From Acidobacteriota bacterium (GTDB taxonomy: Bacteria > Acidobacteriota > Vicinamibacteria > Marinacidobacterales > SMYC01): 64,000 bases of DNA. Below the pieces are notes generated by a model. That model ran no database searches. It saw nothing but the letters and a program-made list of their open reading frames with translations, and was not told the DNA's origin. Positions 1 to 8,029 of the stretch are shown piece after piece (within the stretch, counting starts at the first letter, position 1; every line of letters begins with the position of its first letter). The stretch spans positions 1,194 to 65,193 of the forward strand of contig SMYC01000060.1 of NCBI GenBank assembly GCA_004356105.1, in the 5' to 3' direction. Made by a program: the position numbers and the translations under genes.

Positions 1-447
1 CTCCGACATTATGCTCTCGGATGCCCAGCACGCGCGAGGGGATCCGATACTGCAGACCGACACGCGCTCGTCGAACAGCTCCGGTCTCGCCTTCCTCGTG
101 TCCGGGTTGGGCCGAACGCCGGGCTTGAACTCGACGTCCACGATATCGACGAGCGTCTGGGGTCGAATGGCATTGATGCCGCCCTTGAGGGCCATCATCG
201 CCCGCAGATCCCAAAGGCTCAGGTCTGCGCGGAGACTCTCGGAGCCTGGGTTCGAGCCGAGCAGCACGAGCACGTTCTCCTTGGCAACGAGTCCGGGGAG
301 GATGCGAGGAGCCTCGAAAAGAGGTTTCTCCGCGAGGCTTTCTCCGAGAGCAGCAGACGCCCTTCTCGTCGCGGTCGGTGGCGACAAACGTGAGTGGGCT
401 CTCATCACGCGAGCGAGAACGGCTGTGACCATCAATGGTTGCCGCAT
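1..447 (-). CDS. Hypothetical protein, N-terminal ~149 aa only (gene runs off the window start). Start codon is the complement of 445-447.
   Basis: The reverse frame has high GC3 and a globular-looking sequence (MRQPLMVTAVLARV...ENVLVLLGSNPGSESL...KGGINAIRPQTLVDIVDVEFKPG). The forward ORF 11-745 over the same bases is S/T/R-rich, typical of a shadow frame. It is not in the ORF track because no stop lies in the window. Confidence 0.45.
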   Translation of the reverse strand, partial: MRQPLMVTAVLARVMRAHSRLSPPTATRRASAALGESLAEKPLFEAPRILPGLVAKENVLVLLGSNPGSESLRADLSLWDLRAMMALKGGINAIRPQTLVDIVDVEFKPGVRPNPDTRKARPELFDERVSVCSIGSPRACWASESIMSE

Positions 448-745
448 GGCGAGTGGGCTTCGCCTTCTGAGGGACCGGGATGAAGTCCGCCTAGGCCTTG
501 GCCAGCCTTGGTTTTTCTCGACCGAGACGCTCGCCGTCGCGCCGCCGAGCGACGTCGCCCGAAAGTGCCCCCGGTGCAAGCGGGACATCAAAGCCGGCTC
601 GGAGGCGGTGCGTTGTCCAGGGTGCGACGTCTGGTACCACCAGTCGGACGAATGGCCGTGTTGGACCTACGCCGAGACGTGCGTCCTATGCGAGCAACCC
701 ACTCAGTTTGCCGCGGGATACCGTTTCAACCCGGATGGACTTTGA
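446..745 (+). CDS. Small zinc-ribbon / multi-Cys zinc-finger protein of about 99 aa.
   Basis: It is the C-terminal part of ORF 11-745. It has two CxxC knuckles (CPRC-x12-CPGC) followed by H-x6-C-x7-C-x2-C, and GC3 rises over the Cys-rich part. Its TGA stop overlaps the ATG of the E1 gene (TGATG at 743-747), which suggests translational coupling. The exact start is uncertain. Confidence 0.45.
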   Translation: MASGLRLLRDRDEVRLGLGQPWFFSTETLAVAPPSDVARKCPRCKRDIKAGSEAVRCPGCDVWYHQSDEWPCWTYAETCVLCEQPTQFAAGYRFNPDGL

Positions 746-1873
746 TGATTTCGATGTCGAGCCCCCCTGAATCCGGCAAGCACGTCGTGGTTGTGGGGTG
801 TGGGCACCATCGGCTCGCACGTCGCGGCGCACCTCGCCAGAACGCCGGCCGTCGTGCGCGTCACCCTCGTCGATCCGGATGTCTACGACGCGTCGAATTT
901 GCGGGGGCAGAGCATAGGCGCGGCGGACGTGGGACGAAAGAAAGTCCACGTCCAAGCTCGGCGCCTTCGCTCGATCGACCGCGGGCTCGCCGTCGCGACA
1001 TGGGACGAGGTCGTCGAGAGCATGCCGCGTGGCCAACTTCGGGCAGATGTCATCCTCGCATGCCTCGATTCGCGGCGGGCGCGGCAAAGCGTCAATGAGC
1101 TGGCATTCGTTCTCGGCGTGCCTTGGATCGACGCCGGCGTCTCCTCCGAAGCCCATCTGGCCAGAGTCGACGTTTACCATCCGGGCAAAAGGAACCCTTG
1201 TCTCGAATGCGCGTGGGACGATCGAGACTACGCCGCTCTCGAGCAGCTTTATCCATGCTTGGCGGGTGGCTTAGGCGGCGGCGAGCCCGCGCCCACGAAC
1301 GCGTCCTCGAGTCTCGGGGCTCTTGCGGCATCGCTTCAGATGATCGAATGCGAAAAGCTCATCTCGAGGAGCGCTCTCGCCGCTGACGGCGGTACGCAGG
1401 TTCTGATCGATGTGGGTCGGCACAAACATTACGTGACCCGTTTTCGTCGCAATCCTCGTTGCCGCTTGCCGTCTCACGAATCTTTGACGGTTGAGCCACT
1501 CTCGACAACGGCCCGGGATTTGACGCTTTCTGAGACCTTTGGGCTCGCGCGGCTCCGACGCGAAGCGTCCGAGGTCCACGTCGCCGGAAAATCCTTCATT
1601 CGCGGTTTCACATGCATGGGTTGCGCCCGCACGAGAGACGCTTTTCAGCTCGTCGTCGACGCCGTACGCCCACTTTGTCGGCTCTGTCGCCACCCGATGC
1701 GGGCCGCGGGACTGGACACCGTCGACCGCGTCGAGCTTCGCACCCTTCCGGCGAAGTGGCTCGGACGGAACCTGGCCTCGCTCGGCTTTCGTGCGGGCGA
1801 GATCGTGACGGTCGGCGACGCAAGGCAACAGCGGCACTTTGAGCTCGGAGGTACCCGCAATGACTCGAGGTAG
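745..1873 (+). CDS. E1-like ubiquitin-activating-family enzyme (ThiF/MoeB/HesA Rossmann fold) with a Cys-rich C-terminal extension. A +1 frameshift lies near 802-804.
   Basis: Reading from ATG 745 gives MISMSSPPESGKHVVVVGCG, and ORF 791-1873 continues with TIGSHVAAHLARTPAVVRVTLVDPDVYDASNLRGQ. Joined, this is a canonical E1 Gly-loop followed by the D-x-D...NL-RQ motif. The join requires deleting one G from the run at 802-804. There are CxxC pairs at CLEC and CMGC...CRLC. Confidence 0.75.
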
Positions 1874-2357
1874 AGACCCCATCTTTCGTAGCTTCCTCGA
1901 AAGGCAGTACGAGGACGGTAACGAATTCACGGAGACGAGCAAACGGGTCGAGCTCGTACCGCTTCATGGCTCGCCACCATCCCGCTATCTGGTGCGCTTC
2001 GATGCCAAAGGCCTCGTGCGCCACGGCGCCTCCGAACCGCAAGAAGCAACCTCCTTCACCATGGGCCTGTATTTTCACGACGGCTATTTGAGACGGACGA
2101 ATCCGGGCCGTGTTCTGACGTGGCTGAGCCCGGTCGAGGTCTTTCACCCGAATATCGCAGCGCCATTCATCTGCATCGGGCCGGTGGCTCCGGGAACCGG
2201 TCTCGTCGATCTGCTCTACCGTGTGTACGAGGTAATCACGTTTCACAACGTCTCGCCCCGCGAGGACGACGCGCTCAACCGCGCCGCCTGCGCGTGGGCG
2301 AGACAGAACCGCCGTCTTTTCCCCCTCGACCGCCGTCCGTTCAAGAGCCTCACATGA
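1860..2357 (+). CDS. E2-like ubiquitin-conjugating (UBC-fold) protein.
   Basis: It contains HPNIAAPFICIG, an HPN motif with a Cys 8 residues later as in eukaryotic E2 active sites (compare HPNINSNGSICL). A GGAGG Shine-Dalgarno lies 9 nt upstream of ATG 1860 (the ORF track starts at TTG 1839). It overlaps the E1 3' end by 14 nt, and its TGA overlaps the next ATG (ATGA). Confidence 0.65.
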   Translation: MTRGRDPIFRSFLERQYEDGNEFTETSKRVELVPLHGSPPSRYLVRFDAKGLVRHGASEPQEATSFTMGLYFHDGYLRRTNPGRVLTWLSPVEVFHPNIAAPFICIGPVAPGTGLVDLLYRVYEVITFHNVSPREDDALNRAACAWARQNRRLFPLDRRPFKSLT

Positions 2358-3244
2358 TGAAGGGCGCGTTCCGTAGGCTCGCTCGCGACGGCATCACCGT
2401 CGTCGAACGGCGTGACTGGCTCCACCTCCGGCGCCCGCTGAGTGCCGGGCGGGAACCGGTCTCTGACTGGCACCGGCTCGAGTGGAACCACCAGCTCGCG
2501 GGTGGCACGAAGCTCGCGCTCGCGAGCGACGGCAGGATCGAGCTTCGAAGCGAGATCCCAGTTTGCGACAAGGACCGTCTCTCCGAGCGCCTCGCCCGGA
2601 CGCGCCAAGGGTTCAAGCAGGGCGCCGCGCAACACGATGGAGAGTCTTCGCGCCCGCGCCTATCGACGACCGAACCTCTCGAGCCTCTCGAGCCTCTTGA
2701 TATTGCCCGACTCGAAGCGATGCTCGACGAGGGCGGCCGTGTTTTCCGACGCCGATCCGAAAGCGCACTCAGCGTCACGCTCCCGGGCGTCGTCGAGCGC
2801 CCCCTATGCCTCGAGTCGACGCCTCGATGGGCGGTTCGCGCCTCGCTCGATCTCGTCACGCTCGCGGACTGGTCCCCTGAGTCCCGAACCGCGTTCTGCC
2901 GTTTCCTCATGATGACGAACGGCACCCTTCGCCTGGCCCGCGCAAGCCTCGAGGGCGAACGAGCCCGGTTCGAGGTTTGCTACGACACCACGCCCACTCT
3001 GATCGATCTCGACCACGCCATCGTCGCACTAGAAGCGGCCTCTCGTTTCTACTACCGCGAAGCACGCGCTCTCAGCGAGCCTGTTTTGGCCAGCCGTTTC
3101 CTGGACTGGCTCGAAGGCCCTTCCGAGAGCTCACGAACGACCACTCACACCGAACACCTACAAACGCGAGCACGGCCACGTCGTCCGCTTGCTCCGCGTC
3201 ACCCTCTGGGGATGTCCCGGCCGCTGTTGAATCTGGTCGGGTAG
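2354..3244 (+). CDS. Hypothetical protein of 296 aa, co-operonic with E1/E2.
   Basis: This is the in-frame part of ORF 2120-3244 from ATGATG at 2354, ATGA-coupled to the E2 stop. It looks globular with acidic patches (EPLEPLEPLD) and has no JAB HxH...S..D motif and no terminal GG. Confidence 0.5.
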   Translation: MMKGAFRRLARDGITVVERRDWLHLRRPLSAGREPVSDWHRLEWNHQLAGGTKLALASDGRIELRSEIPVCDKDRLSERLARTRQGFKQGAAQHDGESSRPRLSTTEPLEPLEPLDIARLEAMLDEGGRVFRRRSESALSVTLPGVVERPLCLESTPRWAVRASLDLVTLADWSPESRTAFCRFLMMTNGTLRLARASLEGERARFEVCYDTTPTLIDLDHAIVALEAASRFYYREARALSEPVLASRFLDWLEGPSESSRTTTHTEHLQTRARPRRPLAPRHPLGMSRPLLNLVG

Positions 3245-3520: not shown

Positions 3521-3930
3521 TCAGGCCGCCTCGCGCCATTCGTACCGGTGGTGCGGTCCGCCCACTCGCGGCAGTGCAACGACTCTCGCCGTTGAGGATG
3601 GCCGAGGTGTGGCATCTCTCTCGTTCGGCGTATCCTTGTGGAGCGCCAAGTGACAGCGGTCCTCGTGATAGTAGCTGATGTAAGACCGCACGAGGCGAAT
3701 GAAATGACGCTCGCTAAGGACGACTACGTGTTCGAGGAGCTCTCGACGACAGCTGCCGATCCAGCGCTCGGCTGTCCCGTTCTGCCACGGGCTCCGATAA
3801 GAAATGCGAACAGGCTTTGTGCCCATGGCCCTTATAAACTCAACCACCGCAGGCTGAATATAGAGTCGCGGTCGAAGACCAGGTATCGCGGCGCGGTGTC
3901 GTACGGAAACGCGTCACGTAGTTGCTGCAT
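3521..3930 (-). mobile_element. IS481-family (rve/DDE integrase) transposase remnant, C-terminal ~135 aa, with an internal frameshift and stop. The N-terminal catalytic region is missing.
   Basis: ORF 3521-3847 reads SPWQNGTAERW...YYHEDRCHLALHKDTP...GGPHHRYEWREAA, typical of the rve C-terminus. The upstream piece MQQLRDAFPYDTAPRYLVFDRDSIFS is in another frame and ends at a TAA. Confidence 0.6.
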
Positions 3931-3943
3931 CACCCACGCCGGC

Positions 3944-4007
3944 GTCGGATGGAACGTGGCGTTGAAGTGCAAGATATCTTGTACTTCAACGCCACGTTGC
4001 ATCCGAC
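3944..4007. repeat. 64-bp near-perfect inverted repeat (palindrome) with 2 mismatches.
   Basis: The left arm gtcggatggaacgtggcgttgaagtgcaagat and the right arm atcttgtacttcaacgccacgttgcatccgac are reverse complements apart from 2 positions. It is centred on gat|atc at 3975/3976. Confidence 0.85.
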
Positions 4008-6687: not shown

Positions 6688-7358
6688 TGGGATCGCTCGT
6701 CGACAGTTTCTTCAACGCGGAGATTCTGGCGCGAGCGCTGCCGGCCGTCACGGCGGGACTCTGGGTCACGCTGCAGCTAACGCTCGCCATCATCCCGACA
6801 GGCATCACACTCGGACTCGCATTAGCACTCGTGCGCGTACGGCGCCTTCGCCCTCTCAACATTCTGATCGTCATCTTCGTCGACGTATTTCGCGCGGTCC
6901 CTCCACTCGTCATCTTGATCGTGCTCTACTTCGCGCTCCCCTATCTCGATATCCGGCTCTCGGGATTCACCGCCGCGTGGCTCGGATTGAGCCTCGTCCT
7001 CGCAGCTTTTTCCGAAGAGATTTTCTGGGCCGGCATCTTGTCCGTCGACGAGGGCCAGTGGGAGGCCGCGCGCGCGACGGGACTCAGCTCGAGCGCGACG
7101 CTCGTCTACGTCGTCTTGCCTCAAGCGGTTCGCCTTGCCATTGCGCCGCTCACGAACCGCGCGATCGCGATCGGCAAAGGAACAGCTCTCGCCTCCGTCA
7201 TCGCCGTACCCGAGATCCTCAATCAAGCGACGAGCATCCAAGCGCAAACGGCCAACCCGTCGCCGTTGACGCTCGCGGCAATGGCCTACCTCGTGCTGTT
7301 TCTTCCACTCGTGGTGGCGAGCCGATGGGTGGAATCGCGCTTTGGCTGGAGGCATTGA
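6687..7358 (+). CDS. Amino-acid ABC transporter permease.
   Basis: It has multiple transmembrane segments and the EAA loop (EAARATGLS). Its ATG overlaps the ATPase stop. Confidence 0.8.
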   Translation: MGSLVDSFFNAEILARALPAVTAGLWVTLQLTLAIIPTGITLGLALALVRVRRLRPLNILIVIFVDVFRAVPPLVILIVLYFALPYLDIRLSGFTAAWLGLSLVLAAFSEEIFWAGILSVDEGQWEAARATGLSSSATLVYVVLPQAVRLAIAPLTNRAIAIGKGTALASVIAVPEILNQATSIQAQTANPSPLTLAAMAYLVLFLPLVVASRWVESRFGWRH

Positions 7359-8029
7359 TGGAATCTCTCATCGACAGCTTCTTCAATCCCGAGGTCATGA
7401 AAGCGAGCCTGCCCTACTTGGTTCGTGGGCTCGTCATGACGCTTCAGCTCTCGTCAATCGTCATCCCGACAGGCGTCGTGAGCGGCGCCGTGCTCGCGAT
7501 TCTCTTCACCTCCCATCACCGATGGCTTCGCGCTCTCCTCATCGTCTATGTCGATTTCTTCCGCGCTTTCCCGCCTCTCGTCCTCGTGATCTTCGTGTTC
7601 TACGGGCTTCCTTATCTCGGGATCGAGATTTCGAATCTCGCTGCCGTGAGCCTCGCTCTTGTCTTGAACACGTCGAGCTTCTACGGGGAGATTTTTCGCG
7701 CGGGCATCGAGAGCATTCCAGCCGGGCAGTGGGAAGCGGCACGAGCGACAGGGCTCTCTTCGTTGCAAACGATGACCTATGTCGTCTTGCCACAAGCGAC
7801 GCGCAACGTGCTTCCCGACCTCGTGAGCAATACGCTCGAAGTGGTGAAGCTCACTTCGCTCGCGAGCGTTGTCGCACTTCCAGAGCTTTTGCGGATGGCG
7901 CGCATTGCGCAAGGCGTAACCTTCAACCCCACGCCCCTCGTGATGGCCGCGCTCGTTTACCTCGTGTTCCTTTGGCCCCTCGTCCGGCTCTTGAGCTCTA
8001 TGGAGCGCCGTTTGGCTGCTCCCGTTTGA
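7358..8029 (+). CDS. Amino-acid ABC transporter permease (second copy).
   Basis: It is a paralogue of the previous gene (MESLIDSFFNPEV...EAARATGLS). It overlaps the first permease by ATGA. The upstream part of ORF 6542-8029 is a shadow frame. Confidence 0.8.
   Translation: MESLIDSFFNPEVMKASLPYLVRGLVMTLQLSSIVIPTGVVSGAVLAILFTSHHRWLRALLIVYVDFFRAFPPLVLVIFVFYGLPYLGIEISNLAAVSLALVLNTSSFYGEIFRAGIESIPAGQWEAARATGLSSLQTMTYVVLPQATRNVLPDLVSNTLEVVKLTSLASVVALPELLRMARIAQGVTFNPTPLVMAALVYLVFLWPLVRLLSSMERRLAAPV

What the first reader, a model, noticed from the sequence alone, without database searches (positions are those of the whole stretch)
446..3244. Minimal E1-E2 ubiquitin-like conjugation operon with a zinc-ribbon gene and an unknown fourth gene, and no detectable Ubl or JAB
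Four genes are chained by overlapping stop and start codons: TGATG at 743-747, a 14-nt overlap at 1860-1873, and ATGA at 2354-2357. Gene 2 has a textbook E1 N-terminus once a 1-nt frameshift is corrected (HVVVVGCGTIGSHVAAHLA...VTLVDPDVYDASNLRGQ). Gene 3 carries the eukaryote-like E2 signature HPNIAAPFICIG, an HPN tripeptide with a catalytic Cys 8 residues later. Gene 1 is a roughly 100-aa protein with CPRC-x12-CPGC plus an H/C3 site; it could be an adaptor, an E3-like zinc finger, or the substrate or modifier itself. Gene 4 (296 aa) has no JAB/MPN, Ubl or nucleotidyltransferase motifs. The known bacterial E1/E2 cassettes (CBASS type II Cap2/Cap3, the Bil ISG15-like system, and the Bub/6A-6E operons of Iyer-Aravind and Chambers et al.) all pair E1/E2 with a beta-grasp Ubl, a JAB peptidase, a CD-NTase, or a combination of these. 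None of those partners is visible here. An IS481-like remnant and a 64-bp palindrome lie immediately downstream, consistent with a mobile or defence-island context.
Basis: partly seen in the sequence, partly recalled or inferred. Interest (0 to 1): 0.85.

Follow-up and report, generated by a model that had tools for sequence, protein, structure and literature searches.

The report
Decayed remnant of a RING–E1–E2 operon
The four genes are real ubiquitin-type enzymes (a RING E3, an E1, an E2 and a chaperone-like protein), but this copy is a broken leftover of a much larger conserved operon, which explains why the ubiquitin-like tag and its protease appear to be missing.

Summary
The coordinates, the gene overlaps and the E2 motif are all correct. 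Gene 1 is a Prok-RING_1 (C4HC3) finger, gene 2 a ThiF-type E1, and gene 3 a canonical UBC-fold E2 (AF2 pLDDT 94; every top PDB match is a eukaryotic E2). Gene 4 belongs to a YbjN/T3SS-chaperone-like family.

I examined about 80 related loci from Acidobacteriota, Gemmatimonadota, Planctomycetota, Binatia and other phyla. Wherever sequence is available, gene 4 is followed directly by a ~96-aa Ubl ending in ...PNIDAG (72/72 loci) and a Prok-JAB protein (66/66). An Mpa-like AAA+ ATPase, Dop, Pup (...GGQ/E) and PafA come next.

The closest relative (L089, ~89% nucleotide identity) carries this full operon intact. Against it, the window copy has three lesions:
- a ~905-bp deletion that removes the upstream regulator gene, the promoter region and the RING 5' end;
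- a +1 G insertion in the E1 nucleotide-binding loop;
- loss of everything beyond 7 codons before the gene-4 stop, next to an IS (rve_3) remnant.

So this is a decayed member of a known, computationally described bacterial RING/E1/E2/Ubl/JAB system. The Ub-plus-Pup super-operon in the relatives is the more interesting object.

The parts
1..349 (-). 5'-truncated remnant of a divergently transcribed gene of unknown function (358 aa in relative L089; no Pfam match). It continues beyond the left edge of the window.
   Evidence: blastn places window -557..345 on L089 5919-6830 at 90-95% identity. The first ~72 codons of the L089 protein are absent here. Pfam finds nothing.
346..352 (.). Junction of a ~905-bp deletion relative to L089 (L089 ~6831-7735). 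Lost: the 5' ends of both divergent genes, the intergenic (promoter) region and a 118-aa winged-helix regulator-like gene.
   Evidence: Two blastn segments abut at window 342-345 but lie 900 bp apart in L089. L089 p118 gives a weak Trans_reg_C hit.
353..745 (+). Gene 1: the 3' 130 codons of a Prok-RING_1 E3-like protein. The native N-terminus (MAHLW..., ~25 codons) has been deleted. The C4HC3 zinc-binding domain is at 566-691.
   Evidence: Pfam PF14446 scores 29.7 bits against a cut-off of 29.1. All 50 relatives hit PF14446, and the eight Zn ligands are invariant. The profile matches PHD and RING-H2 structures in the PDB. The truncation is shown.
745..1873 (+). Gene 2: a ThiF-family E1 (375 aa once repaired), broken by a +1 insertion in the G-run at 795-798 inside the GxGxxG nucleotide-binding loop. 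The C-terminal ~115 aa carry CxxC...CxxC followed by a conserved tail.
   Evidence: Pfam ThiF 6.2e-26. The nearest solved structures are ThiF, MoeB, UBA5 and SAE2. DNA alignment to L089 shows one extra base. The sequence is identical in L001-L003.
1860..2357 (+). Gene 3: an apparently intact UBC-fold E2 of 165 aa, with HPN at 2145-2153 and the catalytic Cys105 at 2172-2174.
   Evidence: AF2 pLDDT 94.1 and pTM 0.89. The Foldseek PDB top 50 are all canonical E2s with probability 1.0 and TM ~0.55-0.65. The family profile against the PDB gives 2pwq at E=0.0026, aligned across HPN...C. H96, P97, N98 and C105 are invariant in 40 homologues.
2354..3244 (+). Gene 4: a member of a conserved YbjN/T3SS-chaperone-like family that always follows the E2. 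It is native up to ~3157. The segment 3158-3244 is an unrelated tail that replaces the last 7 native codons.
   Evidence: HMM hits fall at this position in all related loci. Six of 61 members hit Pfam YbjN (best 2.3e-8) and one hits CesT. Close relatives P0121 and P0122 end ...PTKEES, whereas the window diverges after ...HTEH. The AF2 model is unreliable (pLDDT 45).
3521..4002 (-). 5'-truncated transposase (integrase-core) remnant lying where relatives carry Ubl, JAB, Mpa, Dop, Pup and PafA.
   Evidence: Pfam rve_3 4.1e-9 on 3521-3847. The ORFs are listed.
3944..4007 (.). 64-bp palindrome with no spacer (32-nt arms, 94% complementary) at the truncated end of the transposase remnant.
   Evidence: the repeat finder. 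It is also present in L001.

Best explanation
The window holds a degraded, very probably non-functional remnant of a conserved 10-11-gene operon.

In intact relatives the gene order is: winged-helix regulator; RING E3 (Prok-RING_1); E1; E2; YbjN-like protein; ~96-aa Ubl ending in ...PNIDAG; JAB peptidase; Mpa-like AAA+ ATPase; Dop-like protein; Pup (...GGQ/E); PafA-like protein.

In this genome three events damaged the locus (shown by comparison):
- a ~905-bp deletion removed the regulator gene, the promoter region and the first ~25 codons of the RING gene;
- a +1 G insertion split the E1 within its ATP-binding glycine loop;
- everything from 7 codons before the gene-4 stop onward was lost next to an IS remnant, including the Ubl, JAB, Mpa, Dop, Pup and PafA genes.

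How the intact system most likely works is inferred, not shown. The JAB protein trims the variable tail of the Ubl to expose the C-terminal Ala-Gly, and probably also reverses conjugation. The E1 adenylates the Ubl and passes it to Cys105 of the E2, whose HPN motif forms the oxyanion hole. The C4HC3 RING protein, through its N-terminal beta-rich domain, brings the charged E2 to substrates. The YbjN-like protein acts as an adaptor or chaperone. Tagged proteins are handled by the co-encoded Mpa-like unfoldase, which also serves the adjacent Dop/Pup/PafA tagging module.
For: Operon conservation was measured in ~80 species-level loci from at least 8 phyla. Downstream of gene 4 the counts are Ubl 72/72, JAB 66/66, AAA 60/60, Dop-like 56/57, Pup 54/56 and PafA-like 47/51. 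Upstream of the E2 they are RING 65/70 and E1 71/76. Gene-level Pfam annotation of six neighbourhoods agrees.

For the Ubl, A and G at the C-terminus are invariant. 24 of 75 proteins end exactly at AG; the rest carry unconserved tails. The best PDB profile hits are the beta-grasp proteins SAMP1/MoaD, the NP95 Ubl domain and ISG15, aligned to the C-terminus, but they are not significant.

The JAB protein hits Prok-JAB at 29.5 bits against a cut-off of 25. By NCBIfam, the AAA best matches the pup_AAA proteasome ATPase, PL1 best matches Dop and PL2 best matches PafA.

The lesions are supported as follows. L089 (~89% nt identity) has every gene, with a 381-aa single-ORF E1. The junctions and the extra base are seen. 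The foreign gene-4 tail is seen. The same sequence occurs in L001-L003. No Ubl, JAB, AAA, Pup-ligase or Pup lies anywhere in the 64-kb window.
Against: The E2 ORF is intact and gene 4 is open to a stop (its native 3' end is replaced), and the stop/start overlaps are preserved.

dN/dS between the window and L089 is 0.19-0.26 for RING, E1 and E2. Constraint therefore acted over most of the divergence, and decay must be recent, or some genes may still be in use.

Some Blastocatellia keep E2-to-PafA without an adjacent RING or E1. The modules can therefore be unlinked, and a second locus elsewhere in this genome cannot be excluded.

No raw reads were available to confirm the junctions or the G-run. 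The four assemblies that agree may share the same reads. The mechanism of the intact system is inferred from homology and synteny only.
Confidence: 0.85

Rival explanations
1. The four genes still work as a split system. The Ubl, JAB and pupylation module would be encoded elsewhere in this genome. The E1 would be made from the internal TTG/GTG start or by frameshifting, and the RING protein from ATG 446.
For: In Blastocatellia loci L009, L012, L014, L032 and L036 the E2-to-PafA block has no RING or E1 within up to 10 kb, so unlinked modules exist in nature. dN/dS is 0.19-0.26. The E2 is intact with all invariant residues. Gene callers predicted a 357-aa E1 from the internal start.
Against: An E1 starting at 791 or 800 lacks strand beta-1 and the first glycine of the GxGxxG loop. 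The ~89%-identical relative has no extra base, so this is not a conserved recoding site. The RING gene has lost its promoter region and its conserved MAHLW N-terminus, and now abuts another truncated gene. Gene 4 has lost its native C-terminus. Three independent lesions plus an IS remnant are the signature of decay.
Confidence: 0.07
2. The lesions are assembly or sequencing artefacts. On this view the real chromosome carries the intact full operon, and the contig is a chimera joined at repeats, with a homopolymer error in the E1.
For: A zero-spacer 64-bp palindrome and an IS fragment lie just downstream; such features often mark mis-joins in metagenome assemblies. Several long-read MAG loci in the survey show many split genes that are probably indel errors, for example L039 and L070.
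Against: The sequence from -598 to 3263 is identical in three other assemblies (ENA, JGI, Logan). At least one of them differs from the window elsewhere (2 SNPs and 1 indel at 3834-3868), so they are not copies of one file. The 3' junction (3157) lies ~790 bp from the palindrome. The 5' junction is a clean fusion of two unique sequences. The names suggest short-read k-mer assemblies, which rarely add a base to a 3-G run.
Confidence: 0.06
3. The locus is, or was, an anti-phage ubiquitin-like defence system of the CBASS type II, Bil or Bub kind, in a mobile defence island.
For: The E1 N-terminal ~80-150 residues match PADLOC 'E1-E2' (Cap2-type) models at 1e-16 to 1e-6, and the NCBIfam 6A-MBL cap2_3 model weakly. 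An IS remnant is adjacent.
Against: These matches cover only the generic adenylation domain. The E2, gene 4 and RING have no PADLOC hit. There is no CD-NTase, the E2 and E1 are separate genes, and the E2 keeps its Cys and C-terminal helices; Bub E2s have Ser and lack those helices (PMC11601596). In more than 50 species the operon is fused to Mpa/Dop/Pup/PafA, a proteostasis module. Neighbouring genes are not defence genes.
Confidence: 0.05

Closest known systems
Bacterial Prok-RING_1 ubiquitin-like operons (RING + E1 + E2 + Ubl + JAB), predicted by Burroughs, Iyer and Aravind, Mol Biosyst 2011. Cited in PMC4197634 as present in Actinobacteria, Planctomycetes and Acidobacteria. The paper itself was not held, so its details rest on my memory and on the Pfam model.
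   Same: A C4HC3 RING that hits PF14446, a separate ThiF-type E1 with a C-terminal extension, a separate E2 with the eukaryote-like HPN...Cys configuration, and, in relatives, a Ubl and a Prok-JAB protein. The phyla are the same.
   Different: The window copy lacks the Ubl and JAB and is damaged. The E2, gene 4 and the Ubl match no Pfam model. In relatives the operon is invariably continuous with Mpa/Dop/Pup/PafA; I could not verify whether the 2011 paper reported that linkage.
Caldiarchaeum subterraneum five-gene Ub/E1/E2/RING/Rpn11 cluster (Nunoura 2011, PMC3082918; summarised in PMC4197634)
   Same: One operon encodes the modifier, E1, E2, a small RING E3 and a JAB/MPN+ peptidase. The E2 is the canonical UBC type.
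   Different: The system here is bacterial. The Ubl ends in Ala-Gly rather than Gly-Gly. It has an extra YbjN-like gene, a larger (~360 aa) JAB protein and a RING protein with an N-terminal domain. It is linked to pupylation genes rather than being free-standing.
Pup-proteasome system of Actinobacteria (mpa-dop-pup-prcBA-pafA; Iyer 2008, PMC2588565)
   Same: In relatives the downstream block runs Mpa-like AAA+ (OB domains), Dop-like, Pup ending in GGQ/GGE, then PafA-like, in the actinobacterial order.
   Different: No 20S (PF00227) gene was seen in six annotated neighbourhoods. All proteins score below the NCBIfam equivalog cut-offs. The block is fused to a ubiquitin-type cascade. None of it remains in the window.
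CBASS type II (Cap2/Cap3), Bil and Bub anti-phage systems
   Same: They have an E1 adenylation domain and a UBC-fold E2, and JAB-type or other deconjugating peptidases are encoded alongside.
   Different: Those systems have no RING. Cap2 is an E2-E1 fusion acting on a CD-NTase. Bub E2s use Ser and lack the C-terminal helices. Here the E2 is a canonical stand-alone UBC, and PADLOC recognises only the E1 core.
MoeB/ThiF sulfur-carrier activating enzymes
   Same: They are the nearest solved sequences to the E1 core (1zud ThiF 2.4e-11, 1jw9 MoeB 1.1e-8).
   Different: The scores are far below the equivalog cut-offs (83.9 against 275 bits). The E1 has an extra ~115-aa C-terminal region. It is translationally coupled to an E2, which sulfur-carrier systems lack.

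Membership tests
Prok-RING_1-type bacterial Ub-like conjugation operon | Binuclear C4HC3 RING finger matching Pfam PF14446 | tested here: met
   29.7 bits against a gathering score of 29.1. 50/50 relatives match, and the eight ligands are invariant.
Prok-RING_1-type bacterial Ub-like conjugation operon | Stand-alone E1 (ThiF adenylation domain) | tested here: met
In the window the gene is interrupted by a +1 insertion.
Prok-RING_1-type bacterial Ub-like conjugation operon | Stand-alone UBC-fold E2 with HPN and a catalytic Cys | tested here: met
   AF2 pLDDT 94. Foldseek hits are all E2s. HPN and Cys are invariant.
Prok-RING_1-type bacterial Ub-like conjugation operon | Ubl modifier gene in the operon | tested here: not met
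   It is absent from the whole window and present in 72/72 relatives. The loss is secondary.
Prok-RING_1-type bacterial Ub-like conjugation operon | JAB/MPN+ peptidase gene in the operon | tested here: not met
   It is absent from the window and present in 66/66 relatives, with Prok-JAB above its cut-off.
CBASS type II | CD-NTase plus a fused E2-E1 Cap2 and a JAB Cap3 | tested here: not met
   The E1 and E2 are separate genes. No nucleotidyltransferase was found. PADLOC E1-E2 models match only E1 residues ~10-150.
Bil / Bub anti-phage ubiquitination | Match to the defence-system E2, Ubl or DUB models; for Bub, an E2 with Ser in place of Cys and no C-terminal helices | tested here: not met
   The E2 and gene 4 have no PADLOC hit. 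The E2 has Cys105 and C-terminal helices H115-126 and H141-149. The contrast with Bub is taken from PMC11601596.
MoeB/ThiF sulfur-carrier adenylyltransferase | Score above the equivalog cut-off and a sulfur-carrier context (ThiS/MoaD, no E2) | tested here: not met
   TIGR02356 scores 83.9 against 275 and MoeB models 42-54 against 266-449. The gene overlaps an E2 gene.
Pup-proteasome system (applies to relatives only) | Mpa/ARC ATPase, Dop, PafA and Pup ending in GG[QE] | tested here: not met
   None of these is in the window. In relatives all four are present, but below the NCBIfam cut-offs. 20S genes were not seen nearby.
YbjN / T3SS-chaperone-like (gene 4) | Match to PF10722 or a confident fold match | tested here: inconclusive
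   The window protein itself has no hit. 6/61 family members hit YbjN (best 2.3e-8) and 1 hits CesT. The AF2 model has pLDDT 45 and was not searched.

The most novel reading that the evidence does not exclude
The parent operon, of which this window keeps a wreck, may be an undescribed dual-tag machine. In it a eukaryote-like RING/E1/E2/Ubl/JAB cascade and a Dop/Pup/PafA cascade are co-transcribed with a single Mpa-like unfoldase and no 20S core. The arrangement is found across Acidobacteriota, Gemmatimonadota, Planctomycetota, Binatia and other phyla. The two tags would either modify one another's machinery or mark the same substrates. That would be a bacterial precedent for coupling ubiquitin-type tagging to an AAA+ unfoldase. 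My literature searches found no paper describing this linkage, but the key 2011 paper could not be read.
Probability: 0.3. Interest if true: 0.75.

Novelty: new member of a known kind. Interest (0 to 1): 0.3.

Why it matters
For the window itself, the result removes a false lead. The apparent absence of a Ubl and a JAB is due to gene loss, not to a new minimal conjugation chemistry.

The work also gives a clean operon definition with anchor sequences and more than 70 loci. The system is widespread and experimentally untouched: a canonical-looking E2, a RING E3, a Ubl ending in Ala-Gly and a YbjN-like partner are hard-wired to pupylation genes. An intact relative such as L089, or any cultured carrier of the operon, would be the right object for biochemistry on how ubiquitin-type and Pup-type tagging relate in bacteria. 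Such work also bears on which eukaryote-like E2 and RING features predate eukaryotes.

Tried and rejected
- Pfam, NCBIfam and PADLOC scans of the E2 and gene 4 gave nothing usable.
- Word-indexed homologue searches for gene 4 returned only 2 and then 5 proteins, even with a 61-sequence profile. The AF2 model on a 6-sequence alignment was therefore unreliable (pLDDT 45) and I did not fold-search it.
- The gene-4 profile against the PDB gave only a short Ala-rich match to an SDR (3ak4), which I regard as spurious.
- The Ubl profile against the PDB gave only sub-threshold beta-grasp hits. Its fold is therefore inferred, not shown.
- The RING protein's N-terminal domain looks FHA-like by eye (…NG…DRDEI…FFS). 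Neither Pfam nor the PDB profile search supports this, so I make no claim.
- A metagenome scan with gene 4, meant to find intact alleles in the same sample, found nothing; even the known JGI contig was not recovered, so the test was uninformative.
- AFDB Foldseek was unavailable.
- Ten literature searches found no text linking RING/E1/E2 operons to Pup. Burroughs 2011 and two related reviews are not held.
- I considered programmed frameshifting in the E1 and rejected it, because the ~89%-identical relative simply lacks the extra base.

Full report
**Observation.**
- TGATG at 743-747;
- a 14-nt overlap between the E1 stop and the E2 start at 1860-1873;
- ATGA at 2354-2357;
- HPN at 2145-2153, with Cys at 2172-2174;
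- a CPRC-x12-CPGC-x4-H-x6-C-x6-C-x2-C pattern at 566-691;
- a 296-aa fourth ORF ending at 3244;
- an integrase-core (rve_3, 4e-9) remnant on the minus strand at 3521-4002;
- a 64-bp zero-spacer palindrome at 3944-4007.

The E1 reading frame does change between "HVVVV" (frame of 745) and "GVGTIGSH" (frame of 791). The same sequence occurs in three other public assemblies of this contig (L001-L003). At least one of them differs from the window at three positions elsewhere.

**What the four genes are.**
- Gene 1 hits Pfam Prok-RING_1 just above its gathering score (29.7 against 29.1 bits). All 50 relatives I aligned hit the same model, and eight Zn ligands in a C4HC3 arrangement are invariant. 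The family profile finds PHD and RING-H2 domains in the PDB.
- Gene 2 is a ThiF-family adenylating enzyme (6e-26). Its nearest solved relatives are ThiF, MoeB, UBA5 and SAE2, and it falls far below every MoeB/ThiF equivalog cut-off.
- Gene 3 has no Pfam, NCBIfam or PADLOC match. An AlphaFold2 model on 40 homologues is confident (pLDDT 94.1, pTM 0.89). Its 50 best Foldseek matches in the PDB are all canonical eukaryotic E2s with probability 1.0 and TM 0.55-0.65. The family profile aligns HPN...C to the same motif in 2pwq (E=0.0026). H96, P97, N98 and C105 are invariant. Gene 3 is a UBC-fold E2.
- Gene 4 has no direct match. Six of 61 family members hit Pfam YbjN (best 2.3e-8) and one hits CesT. 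The predicted secondary structure is a tandem beta-sheet-plus-long-helix pattern, but the model is unreliable (pLDDT 45). I file it as YbjN/T3SS-chaperone-like, provisionally.

**Relatives.** The E2 has 229 homologues in the protein collection, none carrying a Pfam domain. Gene-level neighbourhoods of six of them show one conserved order: Prok-RING_1, ThiF, E2, the gene-4 family, a ~96-aa protein, a ~360-aa Prok-JAB protein, an AAA+ ATPase with proteasomal OB domains, a Pup_ligase, a ~65-aa protein and a second Pup_ligase.

I then fetched 80 species-representative loci. They come from Acidobacteriota, Gemmatimonadota, Planctomycetota, Binatia, Eisenbacteria, Latescibacteria, Chthoniobacteraceae and others. 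I scored every six-frame ORF with HMMs for each component. Counting only loci with enough flanking sequence gives the following:

| Component | Present / assessable loci |
|---|---|
| Ubl (downstream of gene 4) | 72/72 |
| JAB | 66/66 |
| AAA | 60/60 |
| first Pup-ligase paralogue | 56/57 |
| Pup | 54/56 |
| second Pup-ligase paralogue | 47/51 |
| RING (upstream of E2) | 65/70 |
| E1 (upstream of E2) | 71/76 |

The only locus that ends after gene 4 with sequence still available is the window's own contig.

The ~96-aa protein has an invariant C-terminal Ala-Gly within ...L-x-P-N-I-D-A-G. 24 of 75 copies stop exactly there, and the rest carry unconserved tails of 1-13 or more residues. That is the design of a conjugatable Ubl with a processing peptidase. 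Its best PDB profile matches are beta-grasp modifiers aligned to their C-termini, but they are not significant. The ~65-aa proteins all end in GG[QE] or SG[QE]. By NCBIfam the ATPase is closest to the pupylation proteasome ATPase, the first ligase paralogue to Dop and the second to PafA. All fall below the equivalog cut-offs. No 20S proteasome gene appears in the annotated neighbourhoods.

**Why the window lacks these partners.** A gene-4 homologue with 77% identity lies on a 1.07-Mb contig (L089) that carries the complete operon, including a single-ORF 381-aa E1. The window aligns to it at ~89% nucleotide identity in two blocks: window -557..345 to L089 5919-6830, and window 342..3156 to L089 7731-10557. 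Three differences follow.
1. About 905 bp of L089 are missing at window ~346-352. The missing stretch holds the 5' end of a divergent 358-aa gene, the intergenic region, a 118-aa gene with a weak winged-helix (Trans_reg_C) match, and the first ~25 codons of the RING gene (VAHLW...). This explains why two opposing ORFs run into each other with no intergenic space. It also explains why gene callers did not call gene 1 at all.
2. The window has one extra base in the G-run at 795-798. L089 reads GTT GTT GGC GTG GGC GCC ATC (VVGVGAI), and the window reads GTT GTG GGG TGT GGG CAC C. The break falls inside the GxGxxG loop.
3. Homology stops at ~3157, seven codons before the gene-4 stop of L089. There the Shine-Dalgarno sequence and the ATG of the Ubl gene follow in L089. 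The window continues instead with unrelated sequence, which gives gene 4 a unique 29-residue tail that close relatives P0121 and P0122 do not have. The IS remnant follows.

Because the RING N-terminus, the Ubl and the JAB are present in essentially all other lineages, the window state is the derived one. dN/dS between the window and L089 is 0.19-0.26 for RING, E1 and E2. The genes were therefore under purifying selection for most of their separation, and the decay is recent.

**Mechanism.** The following are shown: the folds and families of RING, E1 and E2; the conserved synteny; the modifier-like C-termini; and the lesions.

The following is inferred from the established chemistry of E1/E2/RING cascades, JAMM peptidases and the Pup system. 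The JAB protein exposes and recycles the Ubl-AG terminus. The E1 adenylates the Ubl and charges E2 Cys105, and the RING E3 directs transfer. The YbjN-like protein serves as an adaptor. The Mpa-like unfoldase receives Ubl- and/or Pup-marked proteins.

In the window this pathway cannot run as encoded. The modifier, the peptidase and the unfoldase are gone, the E1 is split in its ATP-binding loop, and the RING gene has no native start or promoter.

**Comparison with known systems.** The architecture matches the bacterial RING/E1/E2/Ubl/JAB neighbourhoods that Burroughs, Iyer and Aravind predicted in 2011, from which the Pfam Prok-RING models derive. A review cites that paper for related operons in Actinobacteria, Planctomycetes and Acidobacteria (PMC4197634). 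Another notes the C4HC3 arrangement of prokaryotic RINGs (PMC11354881). The archaeal Caldiarchaeum five-gene cluster is the best-known analogue.

The system is not a CBASS type II, Bil or Bub system. It has no CD-NTase and no E2-E1 fusion, and PADLOC recognises only the generic E1 core. The E2 keeps its Cys and C-terminal helices, unlike Bub E2s (PMC11601596). It is not a plain MoeB/ThiF.

I could not read the 2011 paper. No held paper links these operons to pupylation, and the 2008 pupylation analysis does not mention it (PMC2588565). Whether the Ub-Pup fusion is already described therefore remains open.

**Verdict.** The enzyme assignments are right.

The locus is a decayed member of a known, experimentally uncharacterised kind, so interest in the window feature itself is low. 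The intact parent operon couples a eukaryote-like ubiquitin cascade to Dop/Pup/PafA and an Mpa-like ATPase in dozens of species. It deserves separate attention.

Noticed in passing
L009, L012, L014, L032, L036 (Blastocatellia) and L086: These loci carry E2, gene 4, Ubl, JAB, AAA, Dop, Pup and PafA. Where upstream sequence is available (up to 10 kb), most of them (L009, L012, L032, L036) lack both the RING and the E1 gene upstream of the E2; L014 lacks a detectable E1 and L086 a detectable RING. In this lineage the E1/E3 module is apparently unlinked or lost.
   Followed up: partly
L004-L089 generally, e.g. L005 7109-12352 and L089 11849-16797: An Mpa-like AAA+, Dop-like, Pup (GGQ/GGE) and PafA-like block is fused to the Ub-like operon in more than 50 species from several non-actinobacterial phyla. 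No 20S proteasome gene appears in six Pfam-annotated neighbourhoods. All the proteins score below the NCBIfam equivalog cut-offs.
   Followed up: partly
window 3944-4007: A 64-bp palindrome with no spacer sits exactly at the 5'-truncated end of the transposase remnant. It could be a foldback rearrangement or an assembly artefact. It is also present in L001.
   Followed up: partly
window 3834-3868 compared with L001/L002: The window differs from the ENA and JGI assemblies by two substitutions and one 1-nt indel, all inside the IS remnant. The 3.8 kb upstream is identical.
   Followed up: no
L008 9338-9985; also L041 and L055: An extra ~215-aa gene with a hydrophobic N-terminus and Gly/Ala-rich sequence (possibly an outer-membrane beta-barrel) is inserted between the E1 and the E2 in some Solibacteraceae-like loci.
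   Followed up: no
L005 12359-13528, L007 18563-19717, L008 18340-19515: A ~390-aa AAA_16/AAA_lid_9 ATPase gene follows PafA in 17 of 47 loci with enough sequence. It may be an accessory component of the operon.
   Followed up: no
L005 1904-2518, L007 7428-8051, L089 7302-7658: At least 18 loci have a conserved ~200-aa gene directly upstream of the RING gene; L089 instead has a separate 118-aa gene in that position. Both give weak Trans_reg_C (winged-helix) matches (L005 up200, L089 p118). It is a candidate operon regulator and is deleted in the window.
   Followed up: partly
window 1-349 (minus strand) and L089 5970-7046: The divergent 358-aa neighbour has no Pfam match. It is truncated in the window by the same deletion that clipped the RING gene. 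Gene callers extended its ORF across the junction, giving 259-366 aa in different assemblies.
   Followed up: partly
L017 19064-19663: A second, partial match to the RING-protein profile lies ~9 kb downstream of the operon in a Gemmatimonas MAG.
   Followed up: no
L039, L070, L063, L081 and other MFD or long-read MAG loci: Many operon genes are split into several HMM hits. This probably reflects indel errors in long-read assemblies rather than pseudogenes, and it is a caution for any pseudogene census of this family.
   Followed up: no
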